Shown here: one piece after another, positions 1 to 40,238 of the stretch
Position numbering within the stretch: the first letter of the stretch is position 1
How the letters are laid out: the number at the start of each line of letters is the position of its first letter
From: a virus
Length of the DNA stretch: 64,000 nt
Strand: one strand, 5' to 3'
Virus record (IMG/VR): IMGVR_UViG_3300032285_004186
Notes under the pieces: generated by a model
What the model was told of the DNA's origin: nothing
The model's input: the letters and a program-made list of their open reading frames with translations, nothing else
Databases searched by the model: none
Program-made: the position numbers and the translations under genes

Positions 1-2
1 AA

Positions 3-722
3 ATGCAATCGAGGTGACATTTTAAAACCATATTCCTTGCAAATCTCTGCTACTTCTTCTGCATTTTGTACATGTTCCTGTCTTGAACCTGCACACACCA
101 TGATCCATATCCTATTTCGATGAATCATGAGAGAGGGATGATTGATGTATTCCACAAATAATTCTTGTATGTCTTCTTTTGTTTTGACCACAAATTTAAA
201 ACAAGACCTGTTTTTTACATGAAACTTCAACGCTTCTGTATTATATCTTTTTTCTTTAGCATCACCGTTGCTTGAAAGTTTGGGTGAGGTTGTAAAAGTG
301 GCGTGATATTTGTCTATCCAATCTTTTTCCGGCAGAATAGAACCATTGGTTTCAAAATCTATCCTCGGTAAAAACCCGTATCGATCCCAAAATGCTTGCA
401 CAAAATTTAAAAGAGGTTTTTGCCTAAGCATCGGTTCACCTCCTGTAATTTTCCATATATCACCTCTGCGAAGTTTGTCTACTAGACTGTTTTCTTCATA
501 AAATTTAAACATGTCCTCAAAACTGTATTTGTTTTTCTTAGACCAAGAGATATAAGAGTCACATCCCCAAGGTGAATCAGGAGAAGCCCAACCTTTACAT
601 GTTAAATTGCATCCAAATAACCGCATGAACACACTTGGATGACCTATATACTCTCCTTCTCCTTCAATAGTATGAAATCCGGGACCATCATCACTGATTA
701 ATAAATAATTTTCTTCTGACAT
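3..722 (-). CDS. queE: 7-carboxy-7-deazaguanine synthase (radical SAM), partial; runs off the left edge
   Basis: Absent from the ORF track; translated by hand from ATG 722: MSEENYLLISDDGPGFHTIEGEGEYIGHPSVFMRLFGCNLTCKGWASPDSPWGCDSYISW...ITGGEPML...FETNGS...TTSPKLSS...FKFVV...SPRLH. These are QueE hallmark motifs. Confidence 0.92.
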   Translation of the reverse strand, partial: MSEENYLLISDDGPGFHTIEGEGEYIGHPSVFMRLFGCNLTCKGWASPDSPWGCDSYISWSKKNKYSFEDMFKFYEENSLVDKLRRGDIWKITGGEPMLRQKPLLNFVQAFWDRYGFLPRIDFETNGSILPEKDWIDKYHATFTTSPKLSSNGDAKEKRYNTEALKFHVKNRSCFKFVVKTKEDIQELFVEYINHPSLMIHRNRIWIMVCAGSRQEHVQNAEEVAEICKEYGFKMSPRLH

Positions 723-3603: not shown

Positions 3604-3606
3604 AAT

Positions 3607-4152
3607 TTATTTTTTAATAACTAATAAACCCCTTTCACATCTTTCATTTGACAAACTACTTTTATTAAATATCAAATGTTGGATGTTCTGATTTTTAACA
3701 TACTCTATAATAGAATATAAATTTTTATAATCCACATTGGTTACATCATGATATATTAAAATTCCATCTTTTTTTAAAAGATTCAAAGTTTTATCAACCC
3801 ATTTATCTGTGTTTTGATGATCCGCGTCTGAAACTATAAAATCATATTTTTCTTTACAATTAGAAACAAAATCATATTCATTAGAATTTATGAAGTTTAT
3901 TGAAGTAATTTGTTTTATGTGTTCAAGGTTTTCTGGAGGATTGTGGTTCCAGTCTATAAAATTGTCTACGCAAGTTAAATCTAATTTTATTTGATTATAT
4001 TCATACCCGGAAATAATTTTTCTGGTAGAAGCTCCACTACCTATACCAATTTCTAAACTTTTTTGAGGTTTATTGCAAATAATTAAAGAATAAATTAATT
4101 CTAAGTGATTATTGTCCATCATCACCCAATCTGAAGTATTATATAGTTTCAT
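3607..4152 (-). CDS. Class I SAM-dependent methyltransferase (Methyltransf_24-like)
   Basis: LEIGIGSGAS motif I, YDFIVSDADH, LKKDGILIYHD. Confidence 0.8.
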   Translation of the reverse strand: MKLYNTSDWVMMDNNHLELIYSLIICNKPQKSLEIGIGSGASTRKIISGYEYNQIKLDLTCVDNFIDWNHNPPENLEHIKQITSINFINSNEYDFVSNCKEKYDFIVSDADHQNTDKWVDKTLNLLKKDGILIYHDVTNVDYKNLYSIIEYVKNQNIQHLIFNKSSLSNERCERGLLVIKK

Positions 4153-4825
4153 AAAAATGTTTGTAGTCTGCTTCTATAATTGAAATTTTATTTTCTTGCC
4201 CGGCATAATGAATTATATTGGCTTCATAACGTTTATTTTCCGGATCCGGTAAACCCATATGTATTTTGTTATAAGAAATATCCATTTCTTTATAGGGAAT
4301 TTTACTTTTTACCACCAAATAATTTAAATAAGTTTGATCCCCAAATGAAAGAATGTTGTCTATATTTGGTATATTTTTATAATCTTCAAAATATTTTTTA
4401 TGTAAATGAGAAACCAGAAAAACACCTGCATTAAAATATTTGTATTTGTTGAGATGGTTTAAAGGCCATGTTTCACAGTGTGGTAATAAGGGCTCCACAA
4501 AATCTTGTCTGCACATTTTATCAAGATTTCTATTTTCTTCAAAAGCATAAAAATAATTCTTATCATTATATTCTTCAAATATATTTTGAGCATGTGGGGT
4601 CACCAAAACATCTATATCTGTATAGCACACTTGTTCATAATCATTTAACAAATGTACAAAATTAAATTTTTCAAAGAAAATATTGGGTCCGTTTACTGTA
4701 CGTTCTAATATTAGATGAAAATCTATGTCATATTTTTGACAGTATTTTTTTAAAGAAAGAACACTTTTATTATAATCTTTATCTGCACCATCTATACCCA
4801 GAGTCATTATGGCATGTTTTTTCAT
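4139..4825 (-). CDS. GT-A glycosyltransferase, GT8-like
   Basis: YTDIDV (DxD), YFNAGVFL, GDQTYLN, IIHYAG. Confidence 0.8.
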   Translation of the reverse strand: MKKHAIMTLGIDGADKDYNKSVLSLKKYCQKYDIDFHLILERTVNGPNIFFEKFNFVHLLNDYEQVCYTDIDVLVTPHAQNIFEEYNDKNYFYAFEENRNLDKMCRQDFVEPLLPHCETWPLNHLNKYKYFNAGVFLVSHLHKKYFEDYKNIPNIDNILSFGDQTYLNYLVVKSKIPYKEMDISYNKIHMGLPDPENKRYEANIIHYAGQENKISIIEADYKHFYETI

Positions 4826-4828
4826 GAA

Positions 4829-5335
4829 TTATTTTTTAGAAGCTACACAAATAAAGGAATAATTTAAATCTTTTTCACTTACAAAAATAGTTTCTTTATC
4901 TAAAAATTTATTATCTTGTAAATATTTTTTTAAAATATTGGGTTCAAAACAATGAATATGTTTACGATTATTCCAAGGCCTCCAATATTCTTGGTCAAAA
5001 TGTGGAAGATATAAAAACAAAACTCCACCAGATTTTAATTTTGAAACCCAATAATCCAAAGCATTTACCCAATGTGGTAAGTGTTCTAGGCAGTGACTTG
5101 AAAAAATATAATCTATTTCACCTTGCGGCAAAAAATATGCATCATACCTTTTGTCTAAAAGAGGATCTATGGGTATGGAACCTGGAAAAGACCATTCCAC
5201 ACGATTACATCCAATATCATATCCTTTTCCTTTACAAAAATGTTTAGCAAATGGAAAGGCAAATTGAGAAGCAAACCCCTCAGACTGAAATTTAGGATAT
5301 AATTTTTGATTAAATTCTATTGTGTCAATTTTCAT
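4829..5335 (-). CDS. SAM-dependent methyltransferase (type 11-like)
   Basis: GYDIGC, DYIFSSHCLEHL, LKSGGVLFLYLP. Confidence 0.8.
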   Translation of the reverse strand: MKIDTIEFNQKLYPKFQSEGFASQFAFPFAKHFCKGKGYDIGCNRVEWSFPGSIPIDPLLDKRYDAYFLPQGEIDYIFSSHCLEHLPHWVNALDYWVSKLKSGGVLFLYLPHFDQEYWRPWNNRKHIHCFEPNILKKYLQDNKFLDKETIFVSEKDLNYSFICVASKK

Positions 5336-5936
5336 AAATCACAGCAACTCTTCTGCCATATTGAGTATATTCAATGTTGTAATTTTTATTGATATCTAAA
5401 AGAGCTGTCTCCATTTCAATTTGAGTAGGCCATCCGGGTGTTCCAGCATCAAACGTATCATCTATTATAATAACATGATCTTTTCTGTTGGAAAAATTTT
5501 TAATAGATTTAAGCTCCTCTATCACCGGTGACTCACTAGTGTGTGCGTCTAATAAAATAAAAAATTGTTCATTAGGATTTTGAGATAGAATATTTTTTAA
5601 AAAAATTGGAGAATCTCCTTCATAAAAGTTAATATTTGGATGATTTTGTTTTAAAATTTTATAATTCTCTAACAAATTTATGTCTCTATTGTATATGTTA
5701 CCTTTAACATATTTTTCAACTGTAAAAACTTCTTTAAATTGTATTGCTAAAAATTCTGATGTCCAACCTTCATATGTACCAGTTTCTATAGCTTTATTAA
5801 TATTTAATAAACTTGGAATTTTGTCTTTAAATAAAAAAAGAATTTGCACAAAAGGGTTGGCCACATCCACACACCATGGATGAGGAATTGTTCGATGCCA
5901 TCGCGGATCTTCGGGATCTGATTTGATATATTTCAT
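5325..5936 (-). CDS. Putative SAM-dependent methyltransferase
   Basis: IETGTYEG motif I-like, EGDS, LLDAH, VIIIDD. Confidence 0.65.
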   Translation of the reverse strand: MKYIKSDPEDPRWHRTIPHPWCVDVANPFVQILFLFKDKIPSLLNINKAIETGTYEGWTSEFLAIQFKEVFTVEKYVKGNIYNRDINLLENYKILKQNHPNINFYEGDSPIFLKNILSQNPNEQFFILLDAHTSESPVIEELKSIKNFSNRKDHVIIIDDTFDAGTPGWPTQIEMETALLDINKNYNIEYTQYGRRVAVIYEN

Positions 5937-5940
5937 AAAG

Positions 5941-6654
5941 TTAATTCATTTTTGTAAAAGATTTGTTAAAAATATAATCTATTTCTGTCCAATCTCCAGG
6001 ACGACGAGACGTAATTTCTATAATTTTTGTCTTTAAATTTAATTTTTCTATAAAAAAATTAATACAGGTATCCATAGAATAAATGCCTGTAGCATTTTCC
6101 AAAACTTTACACCAATCAAAAATAGAATATCCTTTTATAAATTGCATTTCTACACATTTCACATCTTTTGGATATTGTATATCCCATTCTAGGATATTTG
6201 GCGGTGATGCAAATTTTTTATTTACAAAAATATATTCTTCATCCTCTTTTAAATTTAAAATGTTATAAAACAAAAAATCTTCTTTGCTTTTATTGCGCTC
6301 AAATGTAAAAAAATTTAACCAGTCTTTAAATGTTAAATTAATTAAATTGTATTTTGATTCTAATATTTTTTTATGTAAAAGATGACTGGCGTTTTCTAAT
6401 GGCAAGAACAATATTTCATCATTATCTATAATTCCGGTATTTTGGTAATAATTTTTACCAGGAAAATCTAATTCTTTATTAACAAACCAAATACCATTTT
6501 TTATATAATTGCTAATATCTGAGTATTCCTCTATAACCGGCCAAATAACCGGAGTATTATATTTTTCTATTATTTTCACGCCAATTTTTTGACAAAAAAT
6601 AATATCACCCAATCCAGCTGGTTGTTTAATTAAACAAAATTTCATTTTAATCAA
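5941..6654 (-). CDS. Putative GT-B (GT9-like) glycosyltransferase
   Basis: N-terminal QPAGLGDII, C-terminal IFDWCKVLENA..IYSMDTC; located inside the glycosylation island. Confidence 0.5.
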   Translation of the reverse strand: MIKMKFCLIKQPAGLGDIIFCQKIGVKIIEKYNTPVIWPVIEEYSDISNYIKNGIWFVNKELDFPGKNYYQNTGIIDNDEILFLPLENASHLLHKKILESKYNLINLTFKDWLNFFTFERNKSKEDFLFYNILNLKEDEEYIFVNKKFASPPNILEWDIQYPKDVKCVEMQFIKGYSIFDWCKVLENATGIYSMDTCINFFIEKLNLKTKIIEITSRRPGDWTEIDYIFNKSFTKMN

Positions 6655-7880
6655 ACATTTTTTACAGTTCTGAATTCATAGGTATATATAGGAGCCTCTA
6701 TATAAACTTCTGTTGTCAATAGTGGTAACAATCTCTCTGAATAATCTCTATCTTCTCCTACACTAATATCCGGATATCCTATCTTTAAAGCCAATTCTCT
6801 CTTAACTGGATTCAGGTGATTGGGGTTTCTGTAATAAAATCTCCAAGAAGGATCTTCACTCGGTTCATCATACCAATTTTTATATTTTAAAGAATGATAA
6901 GTTTTACCGGAAAGTCCACCATCTGTTTTCATTATAAGATGCATACCAACAACATCTGGATTAGACTCTATGGCTCCTAATATAGCAGATATGTAATTTT
7001 CAGAAACTTGATCATCATCATCTACAAAACATACATAATCTCCTACAGCATTTTCTAAAAGTTTTTGCCGCTTTTTACCTATGCTTAGTTCACCCTTATC
7101 TATATCACACAACACTTCCACTTCTTTTCTGGCTTGTGGGCGTAGGATACTAATAAGTCTGTCTAAAAAAGTTCGGCGTCTTTCCAAGGAACATATTAAT
7201 ATGGAAAGTTTTTTGATGCCAAAATTCTTCTTTTCTCTGGTTACAAAAATTTGTTTATCGTAAGTTGTATTTTGAAAATTTAAAACATGTATAATGTCAT
7301 TTTTTCCATAACCCCAATGAGGATGCTGATGTTCTATAATAACTGTATCAATGTATGTTTGTTTTTTTAAAATATTACCAACTGTTGTAAATTCATTATC
7401 AGCCCATTCAGATTTATATTCAGGATAATAGATGTAATTAAATCTTTGATAGTATTTTTTGCCTAAAATACTTAAAGTGTTTAATTCATTCTTTTTATGT
7501 CCATCATTATAAAATAAAATTCCATCTGTGTCAGGATAGTATTTTTGCATATCCTCTCGAATAATTTCATCATAACCTTGAATTTGTGGAATCATGTCAT
7601 CACTAGCTAATAAAATGATGTCATAGTGATAATCTATTTTATCCAGGTCTCTATTGACTGCATCTATTTTAGATTTAGAATCACCGAAAATGAATGTCAA
7701 ATTGTTATAAGTTTTAAGTTTGTCTACAACTGATTGATTATTCATGGTCTGGTCTACAGTGTCTAGCGTAACCAAACAATGCATCTTTTCCGTGTTAGAT
7801 GCCATACTATAATATAAATCTAATGTATTGAAAAATTTTTCAGGGCGATTAAAAGTGGGAAATTTTAATAAAATGTTCAT
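6651..7880 (-). CDS. Tandem two-domain GT-A (GT2-like) glycosyltransferase
   Basis: Domain 1 KFPTFNRP...LASDDMIP...WADNE; domain 2 LSILICS...FVDDDD...GEDRDY. Confidence 0.8.
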   Translation of the reverse strand: MNILLKFPTFNRPEKFFNTLDLYYSMASNTEKMHCLVTLDTVDQTMNNQSVVDKLKTYNNLTFIFGDSKSKIDAVNRDLDKIDYHYDIILLASDDMIPQIQGYDEIIREDMQKYYPDTDGILFYNDGHKKNELNTLSILGKKYYQRFNYIYYPEYKSEWADNEFTTVGNILKKQTYIDTVIIEHQHPHWGYGKNDIIHVLNFQNTTYDKQIFVTREKKNFGIKKLSILICSLERRRTFLDRLISILRPQARKEVEVLCDIDKGELSIGKKRQKLLENAVGDYVCFVDDDDQVSENYISAILGAIESNPDVVGMHLIMKTDGGLSGKTYHSLKYKNWYDEPSEDPSWRFYYRNPNHLNPVKRELALKIGYPDISVGEDRDYSERLLPLLTTEVYIEAPIYTYEFRTVKNV

Positions 7881-9356
7881 TTAAAATATAATTTTTAGAT
7901 GTCTATAATCTTGATTATTAGATACCTCTATAATTTCTAAATTAGGAAGGGAATTCACTCCATCTTTTTTATGATAATCTCTGGATAGTTGGTTATTTAA
8001 GAATGCTCTAAACCGTGCTCCATTTTTTTCATGCAATTCATTCTCAGATTGACTAGAAAGACGGTGAGGATGAGGCTCACTAAAAAATTTTCCAAATGGA
8101 TGCTTATAAGGTGTTAGATTTTCTCTAACACATCTTTCATACAAGTCATCATCTTCCTTACCCCAACCAAAATATTCATTACTATATCCATTAACTTGTA
8201 AAAAATGTTCACGAGTAAAAAGAATTACACCGCCCATGATTTTATCCGGAATATTGATGTAATTAAATTGACTGCAGTGACTACTAATATGAGAAGGCCT
8301 TTCCGGAAAACTGTAATCAGAAACTTCTGGTATTAAATCAACATCATGAAAGCACATATAGTCTCCGGAAGATTTTAAAAAACCTATATTATTAAGAAGA
8401 CCTTTATTGAATGGTTTGTCGTTATTTTGTTCTATTAATAAAATTTCATATTGTTCTACCTGTTTAGAAACATATACATGAAGGGCTGGTATGATTTTCT
8501 TTAAAGCTGACTCTCTATTTCTATATGGAATAATGATAGATAATTTTTTATTATGATTAATTATTTTTTTCTTGCTATAAAGGCTTTGAAGATCTATTAA
8601 TTTTAACAACAGACTTCTAAGATCTACGTTTTCTATAGTATTAGTAAATTTGCCCCATTTTTTAGTAAAAAATTCTGCTGATTTATTCCAATTTTCTAGA
8701 TATTTTTCTTTATTGGTTATAGTTGAATTTTCACTGCTTCCGTTTATATCTGAAAGATATTTTTCACTATCCAATAAATCTGGAAAATACCAAAAAGGAG
8801 GTGCTACATTTTTTTGAATTAAATTATAAGCAAAATCTATGTGTTCAAAAGCATTGATGTAATTTTCATCAAATTCACCCAATTTAGAAATTAAATTGGC
8901 GTGTATATACATAAATGCACCTTGTGGATTGTGGTAAAATCCAATTTTAGTCCCGTCTGGTTGTTCCAAAACAAATTTTAAAGTGTTTTGATTATTAGCT
9001 ATTTTTTCAAAACACAAATGATGTATTCCCGTAGAACTAGCTGCTTTAATATATGCTTCAAAAACATTTGGATCTTTAATAAGAATGTCATCTTCTATAA
9101 GAAATAAATGTTTGCAACCTTTATTAATAAGATATTTTAAGAGTAAATTTTTGCTTTTAGCTACACCTTTTTGCGTGTTATTTAAAATGATATGATCTAT
9201 GTCTAACTGTGGCAAAGCATAACTCAGCTCTCCGTCATTAACAACTGCAAGTGTTCCTATTTTATTTCTAGGAACACTTGCCAAGACCTGCTGATAATAT
9301 TCTGGTCTATTATAGGTCAATATACCTACACCTATTTCAGATGGTGAGATTTCCAT
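7881..9356 (-). CDS. GT2 plus GT7 (beta-1,4-galactosyltransferase-like) fusion
   Basis: N-domain IGVGILTYNRP...LIEDD; C-domain IIIPYRNR, FNKGLLNNIGF, FHDVDL, NGYSNEYFGWGKEDDDL (GT7 signatures). Confidence 0.85.
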   Translation of the reverse strand: MEISPSEIGVGILTYNRPEYYQQVLASVPRNKIGTLAVVNDGELSYALPQLDIDHIILNNTQKGVAKSKNLLLKYLINKGCKHLFLIEDDILIKDPNVFEAYIKAASSTGIHHLCFEKIANNQNTLKFVLEQPDGTKIGFYHNPQGAFMYIHANLISKLGEFDENYINAFEHIDFAYNLIQKNVAPPFWYFPDLLDSEKYLSDINGSSENSTITNKEKYLENWNKSAEFFTKKWGKFTNTIENVDLRSLLLKLIDLQSLYSKKKIINHNKKLSIIIPYRNRESALKKIIPALHVYVSKQVEQYEILLIEQNNDKPFNKGLLNNIGFLKSSGDYMCFHDVDLIPEVSDYSFPERPSHISSHCSQFNYINIPDKIMGGVILFTREHFLQVNGYSNEYFGWGKEDDDLYERCVRENLTPYKHPFGKFFSEPHPHRLSSQSENELHEKNGARFRAFLNNQLSRDYHKKDGVNSLPNLEIIEVSNNQDYRHLKIIF

Positions 9357-10162
9357 ATTTGTTTTAAAGAGTCTAACATATCTTTTTCAGAAGTAAAGGT
9401 TTCAGGAGGTCCATAGTTTGTGACTATAGAAAATTTGTTCTTTTTTATAAAAATATCTAAATTTTTTTTAAAATTTTCCATAAAATCTTGCTCAGATCTT
9501 ATTTTACTTTGTTTGTGATCAGAAACTATGTCTTTAATGTAATTGGATGATCCTTTGACATCTGCAAACCATCTGAAAGGAGGGTGATACCCTTTCTTAC
9601 TAATTTGCAGAGTATGATCTACGTGTTCCAGAGCATTGAAAAAAGATTCATCCATAAATCCTACATTTTCCAGTACCTCTTTATGAAAATAACTTAATGC
9701 TCCAAGAATATTGGGATAGAGATCTATAACAGTGCCGTCGGGATAATTAACACTTTTACGGATAATAACATTTCCATTGTGATCAAGATTATGGTTTCCG
9801 TGTAATCCGAAATTAAAATGTTTAATGCCTGTAGATTTGCTAGCGTTAATATAAAAATTAAAAACATCTTCATTTACAATTTCTACATCATCTTCTAATA
9901 GAAAAATATGTTCATAACCCTTGTCTAGAAAAAACTTCAAAGCTAAATTTTTGGCCTTACCTACCCCAATTTTACCAGGAGTTTTAATATATTTGTTAAA
10001 AAAAGATGATATTGGAGTATTTTCCACTCCATCATCTATTATAACTGTGCAAATATTAAAATGTTTGTTAATGACTTTCTTTAAAGAAGCTTCACAAATT
10101 TTAAAAAAATTGGGTCTATCGCAGGTAATAATAGCAACACCTATATTATAATTCTCTAGCAT
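9332..10162 (-). CDS. GT2-family glycosyltransferase
   Basis: IGVAIITCDRP, GVGKAKN, FLLEDD, EHVDH; start refined to ATG 10162 (track start 10213 overlaps the upstream gene). Confidence 0.8.
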   Translation of the reverse strand: MLENYNIGVAIITCDRPNFFKICEASLKKVINKHFNICTVIIDDGVENTPISSFFNKYIKTPGKIGVGKAKNLALKFFLDKGYEHIFLLEDDVEIVNEDVFNFYINASKSTGIKHFNFGLHGNHNLDHNGNVIIRKSVNYPDGTVIDLYPNILGALSYFHKEVLENVGFMDESFFNALEHVDHTLQISKKGYHPPFRWFADVKGSSNYIKDIVSDHKQSKIRSEQDFMENFKKNLDIFIKKNKFSIVTNYGPPETFTSEKDMLDSLKQIWKSHHLK

Positions 10163-10886
10163 ATTTTTTTTGTATTTCTTCCATAGCCAAGAACATTTGA
10201 TTGGCTGAAACACCTACTGGATCATTTTGACCCGGTATATATTGGTGTTTGTTATAAAACAAACCAAAGCTCAACTCAGCACTGCGTTGTTCTGTGGTGT
10301 TGACTTTATTCAATTTAACAACAGCTTTATAAAGCCCTTGATTCATGCAGGGATTGAAATGGTTAGGAGGATATATACCATCTTTGCGCAGTCTTAAGAT
10401 ATAATCTAATGTATCCAATTGATTGTTACTGTAAAAATGTTCATTAAAATAACCATATCTTTTTATCAAGTTGGAATATAAAAAAATAACATCAGCATTT
10501 AGCTCTGGTGTTATTTCCAAAGAAAGTTGTTTCTCTTCATCATCTACAACTAGAGTATCAGAACCGGGACCAGTCATCATCCAAACTCCAAAATTAGACG
10601 CTTTTTTTAAAGTGTTATCAAAAAAATCTACATCTGTAATAGCATAATTTGAATTTATTAAAAATAAAAATTTTTTTTCTAATAATCTAAAATAAGCAAT
10701 TAATCGATTTTTTAAAGCCGCAAAAGAAACTTCTCTGTCAAATCTTTCACCCTTAATCGGTAATTTGTTATTAGTATTAGATACTATATAAACATTTTCT
10801 TTTAATTGTTCTGGTATAGAATTAAAACAATTATTTAATTCAATTTGTCCGTAAACATCTATAATTCCTATTCCAATTTTATTCAT
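10146..10886 (-). CDS. Degenerate GT2-like paralogue lacking the acidic metal-binding motif
   Basis: Aligns by eye with the two downstream GT2 domains but has FLINSN where they have FL(L/I)EDD. Confidence 0.55.
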   Translation of the reverse strand: MNKIGIGIIDVYGQIELNNCFNSIPEQLKENVYIVSNTNNKLPIKGERFDREVSFAALKNRLIAYFRLLEKKFLFLINSNYAITDVDFFDNTLKKASNFGVWMMTGPGSDTLVVDDEEKQLSLEITPELNADVIFLYSNLIKRYGYFNEHFYSNNQLDTLDYILRLRKDGIYPPNHFNPCMNQGLYKAVVKLNKVNTTEQRSAELSFGLFYNKHQYIPGQNDPVGVSANQMFLAMEEIQKKYAREL

Positions 10887-17441: not shown

Positions 17442-17699
17442 ATGTCTGATACAGAATTTACACAAGAAGAAATTCAATTAATTATTGAATCGTTATTGTA
17501 TTGTGCTTCTTCTGAAATCAATCATACAAAATATCACGAAGATATAACTAGGGTTATAGAACTTGCTGTGAAATTGCGCCTCAAACATCAGGACATTCCG
17601 TTAGATAATGTTTATTATTTCGATGGTAAAGTATTTACTTGTCCTTATGTAGATGAAATAAACAAATTCTTTCCGGAAATAAGATATACTGATTTATGA
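17442..17699 (+). CDS. Hypothetical protein
   Basis: 85-aa ORF with TTGACT-16-TAATAT upstream. Confidence 0.55.
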   Translation: MSDTEFTQEEIQLIIESLLYCASSEINHTKYHEDITRVIELAVKLRLKHQDIPLDNVYYFDGKVFTCPYVDEINKFFPEIRYTDL

Positions 17700-18328
17700 A
17701 AATTGCTGTAGTAGGAACTCAATGTATAGGTAAGTCTACTTTTATTAAAGACTTTCTCAAAAAATGGCCGATGTATACCACGCCGGAAAAAACTTATAGA
17801 GATGCAGTTAAGGAAAAAAATATTTCCATTAATCGTGAAGGTACAGAAGAATCTCAGCAAATTATTTTAGATTTCTTGGTGGATCAAGCTTTGTCTTGTT
17901 CTAAATCTGAAAATGTTATATTTGATAGATGTGTATTAGATAATTTGGCTTATTCTTCTTGGTTGAATTTAAACAATAAGGTTTCTGACAAATTTCTAGA
18001 TCAGTCTAGAATTTTAGTAAGAGAAACTTTAAAGATGTTTGATATTATTTTCTTTCTTCCTATTACCAAGGTATCTCCAGTTGCTATAGTGGAAGATGGT
18101 GTGAGGGATATAGATCCTACTTACAGAGAAGAAATAGATAACATTTTCAAGGTCTTTGTTAAGTCTTATCAATCCGGAGATGGAAGAGTATTTCCTAAGG
18201 GTGATAGCCCTCCAATTATAGAAATATACGGGAGTCCGGAACAGCGCATTGCCTTGACCTCTATGTATATTACTGAAGAAGGCAAACCATACGGAGAAGA
18301 ACAAAGTCTCATAACAGACATTTATTAG
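17696..18328 (+). CDS. P-loop kinase, AAA_28 / NadR-Ttd14-like
   Basis: GTQCIGKST, DRCVLDNLAY, EDGVRD. Confidence 0.8.
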   Translation: MKIAVVGTQCIGKSTFIKDFLKKWPMYTTPEKTYRDAVKEKNISINREGTEESQQIILDFLVDQALSCSKSENVIFDRCVLDNLAYSSWLNLNNKVSDKFLDQSRILVRETLKMFDIIFFLPITKVSPVAIVEDGVRDIDPTYREEIDNIFKVFVKSYQSGDGRVFPKGDSPPIIEIYGSPEQRIALTSMYITEEGKPYGEEQSLITDIY

Positions 18329-19347: not shown

Positions 19348-20307
19348 ATGAGGCAGTTACCTGGAAGTTATGTTTTAAGTAAGTTTTATACACTAGCAGG
19401 GGAGCCTACTTTTCGTAAATTTGACGGAAATTATAATGCCTCTTGTCCTATTTGTCGTGAAGGTAAGAGCTGGTTGAAGAAAAAAAGACTTTATTTTTAT
19501 CCGTCAACCAGCTCTTTTTATTGTTTTAATTGTAACAAATCTTGGAATGCCCTTAATTGGATAAGAGAATCCTCTAATCTTACGAAGGAAGAAATAGAAT
19601 TAGAGGCATTTAGTGGTAGTTTATCTATTGATATCACAGATCATAATAAACAAGTCAAAAGTATGCGTAAGGAAAAACCTAATCTGCCACACGATTCGTT
19701 GAATTTAAATGATTTGCAGCAACGCAAGTACTACCAGCCTTCTACTTATTTTCAATTGGCCTTGGAGTATTTGGAAAAGAGAAGATTAAATACAGCTATT
19801 AATAAATCAGACAATTTTTATATAAGCTTGACAGATCATTTTCATAAAAATCGTCTTTGTATTCCTTATTATGATAGAAATAAACAAGTAGTATTTTACC
19901 AAACCAGAAGTTTAGATGGTCAAGAACCTCGATATTTGAATAAAATTGGATATGATAAGACTGTTTTTGGTTTGGAAAGAATAAATCATCAATTAGATTA
20001 TATTTTTCTTTTTGAAGGTCCTATGGATGCCATGTTTGTTAAAAACGGAGTTAGTTTGGCGGGGTTATCTTTAACCAATATTCAAGAAAAACAACTAGCT
20101 GAATTTCCTTTTCATGAAAAAATATGGATTCTAGACAATCCTAAAGCAGATCAGGCAGCTAGGGAAAAGATTTTTACATTAATAAATGCAAAACAAAAGG
20201 TATTCCGCTGGCCTCTGGATAAACCCTATAAAGATTTCAATGAATGGGCTGTAAAAGAGGAAATAGACGAAATACCTTTAGATTTTATTTTAAATTCTTT
20301 ATATTAA
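19348..20307 (+). CDS. gp61: DNA primase
   Basis: Zinc finger CPIC...YCFNC, RLCIPYY, TOPRIM FEGPMDAMF, LDN, KDFNE. Confidence 0.93.
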   Translation: MRQLPGSYVLSKFYTLAGEPTFRKFDGNYNASCPICREGKSWLKKKRLYFYPSTSSFYCFNCNKSWNALNWIRESSNLTKEEIELEAFSGSLSIDITDHNKQVKSMRKEKPNLPHDSLNLNDLQQRKYYQPSTYFQLALEYLEKRRLNTAINKSDNFYISLTDHFHKNRLCIPYYDRNKQVVFYQTRSLDGQEPRYLNKIGYDKTVFGLERINHQLDYIFLFEGPMDAMFVKNGVSLAGLSLTNIQEKQLAEFPFHEKIWILDNPKADQAAREKIFTLINAKQKVFRWPLDKPYKDFNEWAVKEEIDEIPLDFILNSLY

Positions 20308-20852
20308 GACATCTTAGTTATGTCTGCATCTCTTTGTTTTTTAGGAGCCAGGTTAATAAATCCGTTTAATATTTCTCTTAATTTAGCCACTTCACCAGCA
20401 ACACGAGTAATACCATCTGAAGTTTTACGAGTAATACCTCTCATTAAAGAACCTGGCCTATCCACTGCGGCTAGAGTTTTAGCCAAAGATTGACTTTGGG
20501 TGTCATTAATGAATTCTGTAAACTCTTCTAATTTTGCAGCCCATTTACCCATTTCAGAAATAGCATTGGCTGTAATATTAGGATCTACTCCTTGCGTATC
20601 AAAATTGTCTTTAGGTGTTTCATCTTCTAAAGAACCTTGAAAATCTGTTTGATTTTGGTCTGGGGTAAAATCTTCTGGTGCTTTGGGCTCTATTCCTTCT
20701 TCTGCCTCTTTGACTAAGTGGGTAATAAAACTTCTAACAAAAGGAATGTAAGATTCATCACAACTACAAGATTGTTTGCTGGCTTTTAAGATTCTAGACA
20801 CTTCTTTAGAAGATTTAGATTTATTTTTCTTAGTTTTCATTGAATTCTTCAT
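20304..20852 (-). CDS. Hypothetical late protein
   Basis: 182-aa ORF with minus-strand TAAATA at 20865-20870. Confidence 0.6.
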   Translation of the reverse strand: MKNSMKTKKNKSKSSKEVSRILKASKQSCSCDESYIPFVRSFITHLVKEAEEGIEPKAPEDFTPDQNQTDFQGSLEDETPKDNFDTQGVDPNITANAISEMGKWAAKLEEFTEFINDTQSQSLAKTLAAVDRPGSLMRGITRKTSDGITRVAGEVAKLREILNGFINLAPKKQRDADITKMS

Positions 20853-20870
20853 GGATTTATAGTATATTTA
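20840..20870. promoter_or_regulatory. Overlapping divergent promoters: sigma70-type for the queC operon (+), late TAAATA for 20304-20852 (-)
   Basis: TTGAAT(20840-45)-17-TATATT(20863-68)-6-ATG 20875; TATTTA at 20865-70. Confidence 0.55.
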
Positions 20871-20874
20871 CCTT

Positions 20875-21618
20875 ATGGATAGTGCAAACAACGACAAGAT
20901 TTGTGTAGTTTTATATAGTGGAGGCATGGATAGTACTGTAGTTTTGCATCATGCTTTAGCAAACTATAACAAGGTTTATGCCCTAGCTTTTGATTATGGA
21001 CAGAGGAACATAAGAGAATTGACCGGAGCTGAAAATTACATCACAAATTATATTTTAAAATCTTCTTATGCAGAGAAATTAAAGTATTCTCGTATGCCCT
21101 TACCGGTAAAATTTTTAAATTTTAATTCTGCATTAACAGATGAGAATATAGAAGTGCCTAAAATGAAAGAGGTTATTGGTGATCCACAAAATGTAGCGTA
21201 TGTTCCAAATAGAAATATGATTTTTTTGTCCCTAGCGGTGGGCATGGCGGAAAGTGTCGGCGCGCCTGATGTTTTATATGGAGCAGCCAAGGCTGACGAC
21301 ACTTCAGGTTTTTGGGATTGTACACCAGATTTTAGAAATTATCTTAACACTATTCTTTCTCTTAATCGTAGAAATCGTATAGAGATTAAAACTCCTTTAA
21401 TAGACAAAACAAAAAAAGAAATTATCGAATATGGTTTAGAATTGGGTGTAGAGTTTGGTTGGACAAGAACCTGTTATACAGAACATGAAAATTCTTGCGG
21501 AGAATGTCCAAGTTGTTCGGCTCGAATTGCCGGTTGGTTACATACAGGTAAGATAGACCCATTGAAATATTCTAGAGAAATTGATTGGCAAAAATATAAT
21601 TGTCAATCAATATACTAA
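20875..21618 (+). CDS. queC: 7-cyano-7-deazaguanine (preQ0) synthase
   Basis: PP-loop SGGMDS, FDYGQR, YVPNRNMIF, DCT, TPL, TCY...CGECPSC..R zinc site. Confidence 0.93.
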   Translation: MDSANNDKICVVLYSGGMDSTVVLHHALANYNKVYALAFDYGQRNIRELTGAENYITNYILKSSYAEKLKYSRMPLPVKFLNFNSALTDENIEVPKMKEVIGDPQNVAYVPNRNMIFLSLAVGMAESVGAPDVLYGAAKADDTSGFWDCTPDFRNYLNTILSLNRRNRIEIKTPLIDKTKKEIIEYGLELGVEFGWTRTCYTEHENSCGECPSCSARIAGWLHTGKIDPLKYSREIDWQKYNCQSIY

Positions 21619-21621
21619 TAT

Positions 21622-22254
21622 ATGTGTGGCATAGCAGCAGCTCCAACGTTTGAAAAGGCTTTTAATTTATACAGATTAAATTTACATCGAGGCAGTTATT
21701 CTTCTGGCTTAATGTCTGTAGATACTAAGACAGGTGCTTATTTTATATATAAACAACAAAAAGCATTTGAAGAAATAGAATCTTTGCTTTGGAAGATAGA
21801 ACAAAGTAGAAATAATTTTGATTACTTTCTTTTTCATTCAAGAGCCCCCACCAACAGCACAGAAACACTATGGACTGCAGAAACTACTCATCCTTTTGCA
21901 TATGATAATTGTCATGTAGCCCACAATGGTATTATTACAAATTTTCAAGAACTTAATAAAGATTTGAATTTTAATGTAGACACACAAATAATACCATACA
22001 ATCTAATAAAGACATACAATATACAAGAAACATATTCCAACTTGCAAGGATTGCTTACTAGTTGGATAGTTTGGGGTAAAGATGTACATGTAATTAAAGC
22101 TGGTAGCTCTTTATGGATGGACAAAGATTCTTTTTCTTCTTCAAAATTTGAAGGTGCTCACTACATAGAGGAAGACGGTGTAATATTTAATTATATTAAT
22201 AATAAATTTGAAAAAAGTGGAACATTTCCTTATACAAGTACATATTTTATATGA
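21622..22254 (+). CDS. Class II (Ntn) glutamine amidotransferase, stand-alone
   Basis: MCGI N-terminal nucleophile, HRG..SSG, HSRAPT, HPF, AHNGII.N, DT. Confidence 0.88.
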   Translation: MCGIAAAPTFEKAFNLYRLNLHRGSYSSGLMSVDTKTGAYFIYKQQKAFEEIESLLWKIEQSRNNFDYFLFHSRAPTNSTETLWTAETTHPFAYDNCHVAHNGIITNFQELNKDLNFNVDTQIIPYNLIKTYNIQETYSNLQGLLTSWIVWGKDVHVIKAGSSLWMDKDSFSSSKFEGAHYIEEDGVIFNYINNKFEKSGTFPYTSTYFI

Positions 22255-22937
22255 AAAAAATAACAGCAGTAATTGCCACACAGGCAAAATCTATTCAAGA
22301 ATTTGAAAAACGACCCATTTTTAAATCTTTACAACGACATCATGATTCTAAAGATTTATTTTCAGCTGGTAAATTTGATTTTGTCTTAGTTAAAGACAAT
22401 AAAGAGGGGTTGCCTAAAGTGTATAATAAATTTTTGCAAGATTCTAAATATCAAAAAGACATTCTTTTATTTGTTCATGATGACGTTGAATTAGAAGATT
22501 TGTTTTTGATAGAAAAATTGCAAAATTCACCCTACGAGGTTACCGGTTTGGCTGGTACTAAAAAAGCAAATTTAAATAAACCACCCGGCTGGCATTTAAT
22601 GAGCACAAAAGAAGACTGGGTAGGTGAAGTAGCCCATGCTGATTCCTCTGGAGTTTGGACGACAGTTTTTGGTCCAACTAATTCCAGGGCTTTATTAATA
22701 GACGGACTTTTTATAGCAGTAGATGTTAAAGCTATAAATGAAAAAAATGTTTCATTTAATGAAAAATTTGAATTTCATCATTATGATTTATCTTTTTGTT
22801 TAGATTGTAACAAAGCCAAGGTAAAAATAGGAGTTTTGCCTATTAGAGTCATACATCACGGTTTGGGCGACAGTATGCTTTCAGAAGAATGGAAAGTTAG
22901 TGCTGAAATCTTTAAACAAACCTACGGTACAAATTAA
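22251..22937 (+). CDS. GT-A glycosyltransferase-like protein (Glyco_tranf_2_5-like)
   Basis: GLPKVYN, LFVHDDV, GLAG, IDGLFIAV, FHHYDL..CL, IHHG.G. Confidence 0.78.
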   Translation: MKKITAVIATQAKSIQEFEKRPIFKSLQRHHDSKDLFSAGKFDFVLVKDNKEGLPKVYNKFLQDSKYQKDILLFVHDDVELEDLFLIEKLQNSPYEVTGLAGTKKANLNKPPGWHLMSTKEDWVGEVAHADSSGVWTTVFGPTNSRALLIDGLFIAVDVKAINEKNVSFNEKFEFHHYDLSFCLDCNKAKVKIGVLPIRVIHHGLGDSMLSEEWKVSAEIFKQTYGTN

Positions 22938-22959
22938 AAATTACATTTACAATAAACAC

Positions 22960-23553
22960 ATGAGTAGATCAAAAATATACAAAGATGAAGATTATGATGG
23001 ATCTTTGATTCACGGACGATTTGGGTATAAAATTTTTCGTAAGAATTATAATCCATTAGGGGTGATTCATATTACCAGGGGCAATATGGATGTTAAAGAC
23101 AATTTAATTGATTTAGAAGATAAATTAACAAATGATTTCATTTACTCCGAAGATGCTTTGAGTATTTGTTGGGAGATTCCTAACATGAATCCGACAGGAG
23201 CTGTATTCTTTCAAAGACTTTTTATGCAAGAAATTGCTAATCTTTTTAGAACAGATCAATTCGGAATTTACGATCTTTATGTTGACGGAGATGATTTAAT
23301 GTTGCGTAAAAAAGGCATGGGTGAAAATAACAGAGAAGAATTCGGTAAGGCCAGTGTCAGTATCACTAAGGTAACAGACAATATTGCACTGGGTCATATT
23401 GGTATCAACATCTCCGCAGGATCAAGAGCTCCTAGTTTTGCTTTTTCACTATATTTGACAGATGAAAAAGTAGATGAATTGGCCAGTGTAATTGAAGAAA
23501 TTTTCTATGATATTCTTCAAGATTGTTTTATAGCTACTACCAAGGTGATTTAA
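22960..23553 (+). CDS. DUF366-like protein (biotin/lipoate ligase-like fold)
   Basis: Motifs YDGSLI, DV...IDLED, IYSEDAL, FQRLF, DGDDL, KASVSI, GHIGINI recalled as the DUF366 pattern; start refined to ATG 22960. Confidence 0.7.
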   Translation: MSRSKIYKDEDYDGSLIHGRFGYKIFRKNYNPLGVIHITRGNMDVKDNLIDLEDKLTNDFIYSEDALSICWEIPNMNPTGAVFFQRLFMQEIANLFRTDQFGIYDLYVDGDDLMLRKKGMGENNREEFGKASVSITKVTDNIALGHIGINISAGSRAPSFAFSLYLTDEKVDELASVIEEIFYDILQDCFIATTKVI

Positions 23554-23942
23554 TGATTAAGAAAAAATATAATGATGATTTATTTGTGTATCTTGATTGG
23601 CTTCTTAAAAAACCAATCAAGGATTTACAATTGCAAAATGTGCCGTCTACTTTTATCACCAATAGATGGTTGTCTATGACAAATGTAGATATAACAAATA
23701 TTGTTAATACAACATTTAATAGATGGCTTTTGTCTAAAAATTTTAGTTCAGACAATTCATTGGCTTCTAAATTTTATCGGATAGTAATTCCTAAATTTAA
23801 TAAAAGAATATCTTATATTAAAAAACCAACTCTAGAAAATTCCAAGGATATTGAAGATGTTTCTTATCTTGCAAAAAATTTAGAAATGTCTCAAAAAGAA
23901 ATAGAAATGTATAATCAAACCCTTGATTATTTAAACCTTTAA
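23553..23942 (+). CDS. gp62: Clamp loader small subunit-like protein
   Basis: LF.YLD...FITNRWLSM...IVN..FN...FYRIVIPK..KRISYIKK...LAKNLEMS pattern and size; start refined. Confidence 0.6.
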   Translation: MIKKKYNDDLFVYLDWLLKKPIKDLQLQNVPSTFITNRWLSMTNVDITNIVNTTFNRWLLSKNFSSDNSLASKFYRIVIPKFNKRISYIKKPTLENSKDIEDVSYLAKNLEMSQKEIEMYNQTLDYLNL

Positions 23943-23956
23943 TTTAATTATTTTTT

Positions 23957-24340
23957 ATGATAGATAGACCTGTAAATTTAGAAGATCGAATTGGAGGCAA
24001 AATAGAAATAGAACATTATCAGGGCAATGATTTTGAATTAGAAGATTGGGTATTAGATAAGGTATTAGATAATATTTTAATGGTTCAGTATGTGGACATT
24101 AATGAGGCCGGCACAGAAATTAAAAGAGGTAGTTTATGGATACCTATCGGAGCAGTTCAACATACTTGGAGGGTTGCTAAAGTTATTAAAGCCGGACCGG
24201 ATTGTAAAACTGTAAAAGAAGGAAATTATATTGTTTTTCCTAATGATAGAGGTTTAAAAGTGGCAAATCTTAACGGATTAAAAAATGTAGCTTTCTTGAA
24301 TGAAGACCGTATTTTTGGGGTCTGTAATCCAAAGATATAA
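23957..24340 (+). CDS. groES: GroES-like co-chaperonin
   Basis: VLDNILMVQ, GSLWIP, AKVIKAGPDCKTVKEG..IVF, FLNEDRIFGV. Confidence 0.8.
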   Translation: MIDRPVNLEDRIGGKIEIEHYQGNDFELEDWVLDKVLDNILMVQYVDINEAGTEIKRGSLWIPIGAVQHTWRVAKVIKAGPDCKTVKEGNYIVFPNDRGLKVANLNGLKNVAFLNEDRIFGVCNPKI

Positions 24341-39112: not shown

Positions 39113-39682
39113 TTATTTGACCTTTTTATAGACAGCATCAGAAGCTCCTTTAGAATGCTTCAAGACTGTGTTTTTAGTTGGTAAATGATTGTCTGTGGGT
39201 TGATTATCTATCTTAGATTCCATGCGAAAAACCTTAGCAGAAGCATCACCCATAGGTCTTTCATATTTGTTAGGCACACTTTCTAGAGGCGGAAGATTAA
39301 TGCCATAATCTTTTACTTCCACTAAGTCAAAATCTCCCGGCACTGTAAAGTCATTAAATTCTGTGGGCCATTCTACTTTACGTGGATCTGTCCTTAATAA
39401 AAGATAACAATTTCCCGCTCCTTCGTTATCATTGGCATCTTTAACATTTTGTCTAGCTCCACTAGCCACCACTCTTTTAATAAAAAATAATACTTCATTG
39501 TCTATTAACTCTTTTAAAAATTTAACAAATGATGGTTCACCAGAATAATGCTTTTTAAAATATTTGTCTTTTAAAAAGGAAGGTTTAATAATAATTGGAG
39601 TACCTTCCCTAAAACCTCCATTTGAAAAGTGGGAAAAAGCTGCTTCAAATAACGTTTCAAATTTGTTAAATTTTTGTTTCAT
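39113..39682 (-). CDS. Hypothetical late protein
   Basis: 189 aa, begins MKQKFNKFETLFEAA; minus-strand TAAATA at 39707-12. Confidence 0.6.
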   Translation of the reverse strand: MKQKFNKFETLFEAAFSHFSNGGFREGTPIIIKPSFLKDKYFKKHYSGEPSFVKFLKELIDNEVLFFIKRVVASGARQNVKDANDNEGAGNCYLLLRTDPRKVEWPTEFNDFTVPGDFDLVEVKDYGINLPPLESVPNKYERPMGDASAKVFRMESKIDNQPTDNHLPTKNTVLKHSKGASDAVYKKVK

Positions 39683-39702
39683 ATAATATAGAGGTTATGC
39701 AA

Positions 39703-39712
39703 TAAATATTTA
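39703..39712. promoter_or_regulatory. Palindromic bidirectional late promoter TAAATATTTA
   Basis: TAAATA on both strands in the 37-nt gap between divergent genes. Confidence 0.6.
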
Positions 39713-39719
39713 CCACATT

Positions 39720-40235: not shown

Positions 40236-40238
40236 AAT

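What the first reader, a model, noticed from the sequence alone, without database searches (positions are those of the whole stretch)
20840..23553. queC / Gat / glycosyltransferase / DUF366-like operon: candidate pathway to an undescribed hypermodified 7-deazaguanine
Seen: four tightly packed genes (gaps of 3, -4 and 22 nt) behind one sigma70-type promoter, placed between primase and gp62, with queE elsewhere in the window. Established: QueE and QueC make preQ0; Gat-QueC fusions make archaeosine (G+); phages place such bases in DNA via DpdA to resist restriction. Unusual here: the amidotransferase is a separate gene downstream of queC. It is followed by a GT-A glycosyltransferase and by a DUF366-like protein, a family of unknown function with a biotin/lipoate-ligase-like fold that I recall near queCDE in some archaea and bacteria. 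I know of no characterised phage deazaguanine pathway that uses either enzyme. Inference: preQ0 or G+ may be further glycosylated and/or acylated or ligated, giving a new base in virion DNA or host tRNA, and suggesting a function for DUF366. No dpdA, folE or queD is visible in this window.
Basis: partly seen in the sequence, partly recalled or inferred. Interest (0 to 1): 0.88.

Follow-up and report, generated by a model that had tools for sequence, protein, structure and literature searches.

The report
Phage deazaguanine genes plus DUF366 helper
A T4-like phage carries genes to swap guanine in its DNA for a 7-deazaguanine base; comparison shows the unstudied DUF366 gene is a partner of the enzyme QueC, while the neighbouring sugar-transferase gene does not depend on QueC, so a new sugar-bearing base is unlikely.

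Summary
The four genes are real and packed as described: QueC, a free class-II glutaminase (Gat), a GT-A glycosyltransferase and DUF366. The same 128-kb phage contig also holds FolE2, QueD, a divergent QueE and a DpdA3-type DNA transglycosylase. It is therefore a 7-deazaguanine DNA-modification phage.

The four genes are not one pathway. In about 250 related phage loci, the slot between primase and two conserved downstream genes holds GT alone, GT with a decayed DUF366, DUF366 alone, or all four.

- **GT:** it keeps every conserved residue in three complete relatives that lack QueC. Two of these also lack DpdA3.
- **DUF366:** it is intact only where QueC is in the genome (10 of 10 large contigs tested). 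It is decayed or missing where QueC is absent (10 of 10).
- **DUF366 in cells:** it lies directly after queC in Bdellovibrionota (30 of 30) and in PH0223-like metagenome loci (57 of 60). One locus reads queD-queC-DUF366-queE.
- **Gat:** it also follows QueC in lineages that have QueF and in a cultured Vibrio phage.

Best reading: QueC, Gat and DUF366 form a preQ0-synthesis module that feeds DpdA3, and GT is a resident gene that does not depend on QueC. Earlier follow-ups of this scan reached the same DUF366-QueC link on other DNA. I found no paper on it.

The parts
1..722 (-). QueE-like radical-SAM enzyme (CDG synthase candidate). The 250-aa ORF runs 30 nt past the window start.
   Evidence: Orthologues in relatives hit only QueE models in NCBIfam, at E 2e-13 to 3e-12 and far below the cut-offs. 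The window copy is 80% identical to them. The Cys motif is CX3CX11C, not CX3CX2C.
19348..20307 (+). gp61-type DNA primase: upstream anchor of the variable slot (context)
   Evidence: phrog_47 at 1.5e-45; Toprim_2 and a CHC2 zinc finger
20304..20852 (-). Conserved 182-aa reverse ORF of unknown function, between primase and queC (context)
   Evidence: No Pfam or PHROG match. Conserved next to primase in relatives, with or without QueC.
20875..21618 (+). QueC, 7-cyano-7-deazaguanine (preQ0) synthase
   Evidence: PF06508 at 1.8e-53. TIGR00364 at 164.6 bits, above the 150.3 cut-off. SGGMDS PP-loop and C-terminal CxxCxxC zinc site.
21622..22254 (+). Free-standing class-II (Ntn) glutamine amidotransferase, proposed ammonia donor for QueC
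   Evidence: MCGIA N-terminus and HNGII motif. phrog_4736 at 2.6e-13. Found only in loci and genomes that have QueC. The best cultured-phage hit lies directly after QueC in Vibrio phage 2.275.O.
22251..22937 (+). GT-A fold glycosyltransferase (majastridin-like, PF13712). A resident gene of the slot that does not depend on QueC.
   Evidence: PF13712 at 33.9 bits. AF2 model pLDDT 94. TM 0.67 to the 2QGI UDP complex. H76-D77-D78 invariant. Full signature kept in 53 loci with no QueC nearby, among them loci of three complete genomes that have no QueC.
22960..23553 (+). DUF366 / COG2029 protein with a BPL/LplA-like fold, proposed partner of QueC in preQ0 synthesis
   Evidence: PF04017 at 9.4e-17. 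AF2 model pLDDT 88. VIA Z 21.8 to 2DDZ and Z 10-12 to BirA/LplA/LipB. Intact only in genomes with QueC. Abuts queC in Bdellovibrionota and in metagenome loci.
23523..24340 (+). Two conserved downstream ORFs (139 aa, no match; 127 aa, weakly GroES-like): downstream anchor of the slot (context)
   Evidence: They follow DUF366 or GT in nearly all of the ~160 related loci. Cpn10 at E 0.009 and phrog_3188 at 1.7e-4.

Best explanation
The phage replaces guanine in its DNA with a 7-deazaguanine base.

- **Early steps:** FolE2, QueD and a divergent QueE make 7-carboxy-7-deazaguanine (CDG).
- **QueC step:** QueC converts CDG to preQ0. The free glutaminase (Gat) supplies ammonia from glutamine. DUF366 assists this step. 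DUF366 has the fold of enzymes that bind a carboxylic acid and adenylate it. It most likely binds or activates CDG, or its amide ADG, for QueC, or hands substrate or product on.
- **Insertion:** a DpdA3-type transglycosylase encoded beside the DNA polymerase puts the base into DNA.
- **End product:** no QueF is present in the complete close relative, so the end product is at the preQ0 level (dPreQ0, or dG+/dADG).
- **GT:** the GT between Gat and DUF366 is a long-standing resident of this genome slot. Its acceptor is not a QueC-derived base.

Shown: the gene identities, the folds, and the co-occurrence and adjacency patterns. Inferred: the ammonia-donor role of Gat, the step at which DUF366 acts, and the final base.
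For: **Pathway genes on the contig.**
- FolE2 at 8.4e-65 and QueD.
- QueE-like ORF.
- DpdA3, 42% identical to the 'DNA guanine transglycosylase' of Flavobacterium phage immuto and 35% to CP220. This subfamily gives complete G replacement (PMC10516641).

**DUF366 and QueC in phages.**
- The 18-residue invariant signature is intact in all 44 loci with QueC nearby. It is also intact in 70 loci without QueC nearby.
- Of those 70, 10 of 10 large contigs tested have QueC elsewhere.
- In QueC-less contigs (10 of 10, three of them 99-100% complete), DUF366 is absent or has lost D51, D54, GDD, K130 and H146.
- On a helicase tree, one QueC-less clade with decayed DUF366 is nested among QueC+ lineages. 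GT-only lineages arise at 2-3 places.
- G013 keeps QueD, QueE and a distant DpdA3 but has no QueC, and its DUF366 is decayed.

**DUF366 and QueC in cells.**
- queC abuts DUF366 in 30 of 30 evenly sampled Bdellovibrionota and in at least 60 of 67 further loci. The commonest spacing is a 4-nt overlap.
- These genomes have QueF and TGT.
- In PH0223-like metagenome loci, queC is directly upstream in 57 of 60. QueE follows in 7. L375 reads queD-queC-DUF366-queE.

**Gat.**
- It is present with QueC both in QueF-less genomes (G001) and in QueF-bearing ones (G006-G008).
- It is also in the Vibrio phage cluster QueF-YhhQ-QueC-Gat-FolE.

**GT.**
- The full 25-residue signature is kept in 53 loci with no QueC nearby. 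These include loci of G011-G013, which have no QueC anywhere.
- G011 and G012 also lack DpdA3, QueD and QueE.
Against: - No chemistry was measured and no isolate exists.
- Wherever QueC and Gat occur, a GT of this family lies next to them. This includes a second genome context (UvsX-QueC-X-Gat-GT-gp41). Some coupling of GT to the module is therefore not excluded.
- A sugar epimerase is inserted between Gat and GT in one sublineage.
- DUF366 has many conserved acidic residues, which is not typical of BirA/LplA. It gave no Pfam BPL_LplA_LipB match.
- The alignment of K130 with the ligases' catalytic lysine rests on motif resemblance only.
- Canonical QueC needs no helper in vitro (my own knowledge of the QueC literature).
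- Absence of QueC in seven of the ten QueC-less contigs rests on fragments that are 26-61% complete.
- The phage lineages are related, so the counts are not independent events.
- The tree is a quick one, not a finished search.
Confidence: 0.6

Rival explanations
1. The four genes form one pathway. preQ0 or G+ is further glycosylated by GT and/or ligated or acylated by DUF366, giving an undescribed hypermodified 7-deazaguanine in virion DNA.
For: - The four genes are tightly packed and co-oriented.
- The cluster is conserved in close relatives in two gene orders.
- GT always lies next to Gat/QueC when these exist, even in a different genome context.
- A sugar epimerase or a GNAT is inserted in the cluster in some lineages.
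- DUF366 has a ligase-like fold.
Against: - GT keeps all conserved residues in complete relatives without QueC, and G011 and G012 also lack DpdA3.
- DUF366 sits in ordinary preQ0 gene clusters of bacteria and in metagenome loci where no Gat or GT is found.
- DUF366 lies far from QueC-Gat-GT in most phages that have it.
Confidence: 0.12
2. QueC plus Gat is a split form of Gat-QueC. Its job is to turn preQ0 into the archaeosine base, so the DNA carries dG+ as in phage 9g. DUF366 is a helper, as in the best explanation.
For: - Gat is class II, like the Gat domain of Gat-QueC (PMC10516641).
- QueC matches PHROG profiles whose N-terminal part is a Gat domain (phrog_1550, phrog_10428).
- No QueF is present in G000 or in the complete relative G001, so preQ0 is not reduced.
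Against: - The same Gat accompanies QueC in genomes with a bimodular QueF (G006-G008).
- It also does so in Vibrio phage 2.275.O, next to QueF and a YhhQ transporter. There preQ0 is expected to go to preQ1.
- The window's Gat hits other Gat PHROGs, not the fused ones.
Confidence: 0.25
3. The module serves tRNA, not DNA. It would boost queuosine precursor supply in the host during infection.
For: DUF366-QueC pairs in bacteria sit in the tgt-secDF-queC neighbourhood of the tRNA pathway. Many phages carry que genes.
Against: - A DpdA3 homologue lies beside the DNA polymerase.
- No TGT-family match is on the contig.
- DpdA3 is absent from the two complete relatives that lack the whole pathway, G011 and G012.
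Confidence: 0.06
4. DUF366 has nothing to do with deazaguanine in the phage. It belongs functionally with the two conserved downstream genes, or with the sugar-gene islands that precede it in many relatives.
For: DUF366 is followed by the 139-aa and 127-aa ORFs in ~85 loci. It is often preceded by epimerases and glycosyltransferases.
Against: - The two downstream genes persist where DUF366 is lost or decayed.
- Intact DUF366 tracks QueC at genome level.
- It abuts queC in two cellular groups.
Confidence: 0.05

Closest known systems
DpdA3-type 7-deazaguanine DNA modification of Flavobacterium phage vB_FspM_immuto, Campylobacter phage CP220 and Cellulophaga phage phiST (Cui, Hutinet et al., NAR 2023, PMC10516641)
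   Same: A DpdA3 homologue (42% and 35% identity) plus FolE, QueD, QueE and QueC genes in a large myovirus. Complete G replacement is expected.
   Different: No QueF, DpdN, DpdL or QueC* was seen. QueC is accompanied by a free glutaminase and DUF366, which that paper does not mention (0 occurrences). No DUF366 homologue was found by tblastn in immuto, CP220 or any other cultured phage except one doubtful record.
Gat-QueC fusion of Enterobacteria phage 9g and Crenarchaeota (dG+/G+ formation; cited in PMC10516641)
   Same: A class-II glutaminase working with a QueC module.
   Different: Here there are two genes in the order QueC then Gat. The fusion has the order Gat then QueC. The same pair also occurs with QueF, so G+ need not be the product.
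Vibrio phage 2.275.O._10N.286.54.E11 (MG592671) cluster QueF-YhhQ-QueC-'nucleophile aminohydrolase'-FolE
   Same: The best cultured-phage hits for both QueC (36%) and Gat (28%), in the same QueC-then-Gat order.
   Different: No annotated GT or DUF366 in the stretch shown. It has QueF and a transporter. The product is unstudied as far as I could find.
PH0223 of Pyrococcus horikoshii (PDB 2DDZ), Pfam DUF366 / COG2029
   Same: Same family and fold (VIA Z 21.8, rmsd 2.2 A over 175 residues).
   Different: 24% identity over the structural alignment. No function is assigned to PH0223. The one paper that mentions it lists it in a table of self-interacting proteins (PMC1414084).
Biotin protein ligase / lipoate protein ligase (BirA, LplA, LipB)
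   Same: The catalytic-module fold (Z 10-12). An invariant Lys in a G-K-x-S-V-S strand recalls the ligases' adenylate-binding lysine.
   Different: No Pfam match, 8-16% identity, no GRGRxGR-type motif seen, a cluster of invariant acidic residues, and no acceptor-protein context.
Majastridin (Rhodobacter blasticus ATPase-operon ORF6; PDB 2NXV/2QGI), PF13712
   Same: GT-A fold that binds UDP (TM 0.67) and the same Pfam family.
   Different: 15-16% identity. The acceptor is unknown for both.

Membership tests
QueC (PF06508 / TIGR00364) | Score above the curated equivalog cut-off | tested here: met
   164.6 bits against 150.3; Pfam 181.6 bits
QueC (PF06508 / TIGR00364) | PP-loop SGGxDS and C-terminal Cys zinc site | tested here: met
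   YSGGMDST and C..CGECPSC are read in the translation
Class-II (Ntn) glutamine amidotransferase | N-terminal catalytic Cys directly after Met, and a family profile match | tested here: met
   MCGIA and HNGII. Pfam GATase_6 is below the cut-off in the window copy (21.7 against 27) but above it in the L014 orthologue (35.1). PHROG Gat families match at 1e-13.
Gat-QueC (G+ synthase) | Gat and QueC fused in one polypeptide | tested here: not met
   Two ORFs, separated by a stop codon and a 3-nt gap, in the order QueC then Gat
Gat-QueC (G+ synthase) | Converts preQ0 to G+ | not testable with these tools
   Needs biochemistry. Co-occurrence with QueF in relatives argues against this as the general role.
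GT-A glycosyltransferase (PF13712, majastridin-like) | Profile match above the cut-off, GT-A fold, and a DxD-type motif | tested here: met
   33.9 bits against 27. TM 0.67 and E 2e-10 to 2QGI. H76-D77-D78 invariant in 41 sequences.
DNA base glycosyltransferase (works like T4 alpha/beta-GT) | Depends on the modified base it decorates | tested here: not met
   GT is intact in complete genomes without QueC, and two of these also lack DpdA3. Other acceptor bases were not examined.
DUF366 (PF04017) | Profile match above the cut-off and the PH0223 fold | tested here: met
   61.5 bits against 29.9. Z 21.8 and TM 0.73-0.76 to 2DDZ.
Biotin/lipoate A/B protein ligase family (PF03099) | Sequence-profile membership | tested here: not met
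   No such Pfam hit at E <= 0.01. Only fold similarity, Z 10-12.
Biotin/lipoate A/B protein ligase family (PF03099) | Catalytic lysine that binds the acyl-adenylate | tested here: inconclusive
   K130 is invariant in phage and cellular DUF366. No residue-level structural superposition was available.
DpdA3-type deazaguanine DNA modification system | DpdA3 transglycosylase plus a CDG/preQ0 pathway in the same genome | tested here: met
DpdA3-type deazaguanine DNA modification system | Deazaguanine nucleoside present in virion DNA | not testable with these tools
   Uncultured phage; needs LC-MS or signal-level sequencing data

The most novel reading that the evidence does not exclude
In QueC-bearing phages of this clade, the resident GT has been recruited to put a sugar on the exocyclic amide, amidine or nitrile-derived group of the deazaguanine. 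Alternatively, DUF366 ligates CDG to an amine. Either way the DNA would carry a glycosyl- or N-substituted amido-7-deazaguanine that has not been described.
Probability: 0.1. Interest if true: 0.85.

Novelty: new variant of a known kind. Interest (0 to 1): 0.55.

Why it matters
- **A fifth preQ0 component.** preQ0 synthesis is taught as a four-enzyme pathway (FolE, QueD, QueE, QueC). Here a fifth protein family, DUF366/COG2029, has had a solved structure since 2007 and has no assigned function. It sits immediately after queC in two unrelated cellular groups, and it decays in phages exactly when QueC is lost. This makes a concrete, cheap experiment possible: test DUF366 with CDG, ATP and QueC.
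- **A split QueC/glutaminase pair.** The data suggest a glutamine-dependent form of the QueC step. This would make sense for a virus that must convert all of its guanine.
- **A caution for annotation.** For phage annotation it warns against reading every gene packed beside que genes as a tailoring enzyme.

Tried and rejected
- **DNA searches.** DNA-level search of the region against 50,697 phage records gave no match. tblastn with GT gave none.
- **DUF366 in cultured phages.** tblastn hit only 'Microcystis phage MaAM05'. Its neighbourhood (secF, glyS, mtgA, fliM) looks bacterial, so I did not use it.
- **Missed by Pfam models.** Pfam Radical_SAM and TGT models found nothing on the contig, and a CX3CX2C scan found no ORF. 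QueE and DpdA3 are nevertheless present as divergent forms. They were found through relatives and protein search.
- I obtained gene context through the search for related loci, the genome search and my own HMMs instead.
- **Failed scan.** The genome-contig scan with a broad DUF366 alignment failed for lack of a conserved stretch. The narrower alignment returned only Bdellovibrionales. Named archaeal genomes could therefore not be examined. The PH0223-like loci come from unnamed metagenome contigs.
- **No fusions found.** A search for longer, fused DUF366 proteins found none.
- **No literature.** No paper holds DUF366, PF04017 or COG2029 as whole words.
- **Promoter.** The promoter claim was rejected as evidence, because matches occur at chance level.
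- **Not tested.** The identification of the downstream ORF as gp62 could not be confirmed. Whether the phage makes hydroxymethyl-pyrimidines that GT could use was not tested.


Full report
**Observation.** The window belongs to a 128,659-bp IMG/VR virus contig that is about 60% complete, T4-like and 32% G+C. At the given coordinates there are four co-oriented ORFs:
- QueC, 20875-21618
- a 210-aa amidotransferase (Gat), 21622-22254
- a 228-aa glycosyltransferase (GT), 22251-22937
- a 197-aa DUF366 protein, 22960-23553

The spacings are 3, -4 and 22 nt.

QueC is canonical. It scores above the NCBIfam equivalog cut-off and has the PP-loop and the zinc-binding cysteines. Gat begins MCGIA and has the HNGII motif of class-II (Ntn) glutaminases. 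GT matches PF13712 above its cut-off, and DUF366 matches PF04017 above its cut-off.

The proposed sigma-70 promoter exists as a 9-of-12 match, but such matches are as frequent in shuffled sequence. A conserved reverse ORF separates primase from queC. The downstream 'gp62' has no family match.

**The rest of the pathway.** They lie upstream on the same contig, in contig coordinates:
- FolE2 at 50553-51506 (PF02649, 8.4e-65).
- QueD at 56274-56750, between the gp41 helicase and UvsX.
- A 271-aa protein beside the DNA polymerase. It is 42% identical to the annotated DNA guanine transglycosylase of Flavobacterium phage immuto and 35% identical to the CP220 homologue. This is the DpdA3 subfamily, which Cui et al. 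link to complete G replacement (PMC10516641).
- A QueE-like ORF at window 1-722 on the minus strand. Pfam Radical_SAM and a CX3CX2C scan missed it because its cysteine motif is CX3CX11C. Its orthologues hit only QueE models in NCBIfam, far below the cut-offs.

No QueF is present on the contig or in the complete 227-kb relative G001. Earlier notes of this scan gave me the lead to DpdA3 and FolE2, and I checked both here.

**How the four genes behave in relatives.** I collected about 250 related loci. They came from IMG/VR, seeded with DUF366 and with GT, and from whole related genomes.

The stretch between primase plus the reverse ORF and two conserved downstream ORFs (139 aa and 127 aa) is a variable slot. 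It holds one of the following:
- QueC-Gat-GT-DUF366, or QueC-GT-Gat-DUF366.
- The same, with an NAD-dependent sugar epimerase between Gat and GT.
- GT plus a short DUF366.
- GT alone.
- DUF366 alone, often preceded by epimerases and other glycosyltransferases.

In a second large group of phages, DUF366 stays at the slot. QueC-X-Gat-GT lies elsewhere, between UvsX and the gp41 helicase. X is an IMPDH/GMP-reductase-family gene or an unknown reverse ORF.

**GT does not depend on QueC.**
- Three relatives that are 99-100% complete (G011, G012, G013) have this GT but no QueC.
- G011 and G012 also lack DpdA3, QueD and QueE.
- All 25 invariant positions of GT, including H76-D77-D78, are unchanged in 53 loci with no QueC nearby.
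- The model is a confident GT-A fold, closest to the UDP complex of majastridin.

So a QueC-derived base cannot be the acceptor in those phages. By parsimony it is not the acceptor here either.

One reservation remains. Wherever QueC and Gat exist, a GT of this family is adjacent, even in the second genome context. In that context the GT is a divergent subtype.

**DUF366 depends on QueC.** Eighteen invariant positions define the phage family, with the pattern Y G H D E D D E Q R G D D K S S H N. Ten of these are also invariant when cellular members are added.
- The signature is intact in all 44 loci with QueC nearby and in 70 loci without QueC nearby.
- Of those 70, I tested ten large contigs, and all ten have QueC elsewhere.
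- In ten contigs without QueC, three of them complete, DUF366 is absent or has lost most of these residues, including K130, the GDD motif and D51/D54.
- On a quick helicase tree, a clade with decayed DUF366 and no QueC is nested among QueC-bearing lineages. GT-only lineages appear at two or three places.
- G013 keeps QueD, QueE and a distant DpdA3 but has no QueC, and its DUF366 is decayed. DUF366 therefore tracks QueC itself and not CDG synthesis.

**DUF366 in cells.**
- A scan of one genome per prokaryote species returned Bdellovibrionales. There queC lies directly upstream on the same strand in at least 60 of 67 loci, most often with a 4-nt overlap. In an even sample of the phylum it does so in 30 of 30.
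- The B. bacteriovorus neighbourhood is secF-recJ-queC-DUF366, with tgt about 6 kb upstream. QueF is present, so this is an ordinary queuosine organism.
- A second subfamily is the closest among representatives to Pyrococcus PH0223. I found it in gut, rumen and other metagenome contigs. There queC is directly upstream in 57 of 60 loci. A QueE-like gene follows in seven, and one locus reads queD-queC-DUF366-queE. No Gat or GT occurs there.
- Among 14 control genomes, only the two methanogens have the family.

But the context is core preQ0 synthesis, not tailoring.

**Fold.** The DUF366 model has pLDDT 88. It matches PH0223 (2DDZ) at Z 21.8 and the catalytic modules of BirA, LplA and LipB at Z 10-12, well above background.
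- These relatives bind a carboxylic acid and usually adenylate it. CDG is a carboxylic acid.
- An invariant lysine in a G-K-x-S-V-S strand recalls the ligases' lysine. I could not superpose residues, so this stays an inference.
- There is no Pfam BPL match, and the many invariant acidic residues are unlike those ligases.

**Gat.** Gat occurs only where QueC does.
- It accompanies QueC in genomes without QueF (G001) and in genomes with a bimodular QueF (G006-G008).
- In cultured Vibrio phage 2.275.O, the best hits for both proteins lie side by side in a QueF-YhhQ-QueC-Gat-FolE cluster.
- If Gat made G+ from preQ0 it would compete with QueF.

The simpler reading is that Gat delivers ammonia to QueC. 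For this phage, which lacks QueF, a dG+ end product remains a live alternative.

**Verdict.** QueC, Gat and DUF366 form a preQ0-synthesis module that feeds DpdA3-mediated DNA modification together with FolE2, QueD and QueE. GT is a resident of the slot whose target is not a QueC product.

After my own analysis, a look-up showed that earlier follow-ups of this scan reached the same DUF366-QueC link on many other genomes. Their mention of a QueC-DUF366 fusion was not reproduced here. I found no published description.

**Limits.**
- There is no biochemistry and no isolate.
- Absence calls in fragments are provisional.
- The phage lineages are related, so counts overstate the number of independent events.
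- The tree search was not finished.
- The organisms behind the metagenome loci are unknown.

Noticed in passing
window 1-722 (-), ORF continues 30 nt before the window: The QueE-like protein has the cysteine motif CNLTC-x11-C (CX3CX11C) instead of CX3CX2C or CX14CX2C. Pfam Radical_SAM misses it. It is conserved at 52-80% identity in relatives, including G013, which lacks QueC.
   Followed up: partly
L111:6883-7863 (-) and L114 (genomes G006, G009): An IMPDH/GMP-reductase-family gene (PF00478, 8.7e-61) sits between QueC and Gat in a second group of relatives. It may act on guanine nucleotide pools during G replacement.
   Followed up: no
L009:6290-7303 (+), also L008 and L011; L112:4506-4994 (-): An NAD-dependent sugar epimerase/dehydratase is inserted between Gat and GT in one sublineage. 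A GNAT acetyltransferase lies between Gat and GT in another.
   Followed up: partly
G013 (IMGVR_UViG_3300046808_001241), e.g. 39222-40377 and 99828-100586: A complete relative has QueD, QueE and a distant DpdA3-like gene (28% identity) but no QueC, FolE2 or QueF. It is a candidate dCDG- or dDG-type phage.
   Followed up: partly
L002 (MW495066.1, 'Microcystis phage MaAM05', 108417-124956): The only cultured-phage record with a DUF366 hit carries secF, glyS, mtgA, fabI and fliM around it. This looks like bacterial DNA in a phage record.
   Followed up: no
L308 (MG592671.1, 333209-337242): Vibrio phage 2.275.O has a QueF-YhhQ(PF02592)-QueC-Ntn glutaminase-FolE row. This is a cultured system in which the QueC-Gat pair could be tested.
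   Followed up: partly
window 17696-18328 (+): A thymidylate-kinase-like nucleotide kinase (phrog_2107, 9e-21) is conserved two genes upstream of primase in relatives, with and without QueC.
   Followed up: no
L012, L043, L063, L065, L067, L089 and others, upstream of DUF366: In many relatives the slot before DUF366 is filled with sugar-nucleotide epimerases and GT2/GT-B glycosyltransferases. It is a hot spot for glycan genes, separate from the 8-kb glycan island at window 2614-10886 that another reader noted.
   Followed up: partly
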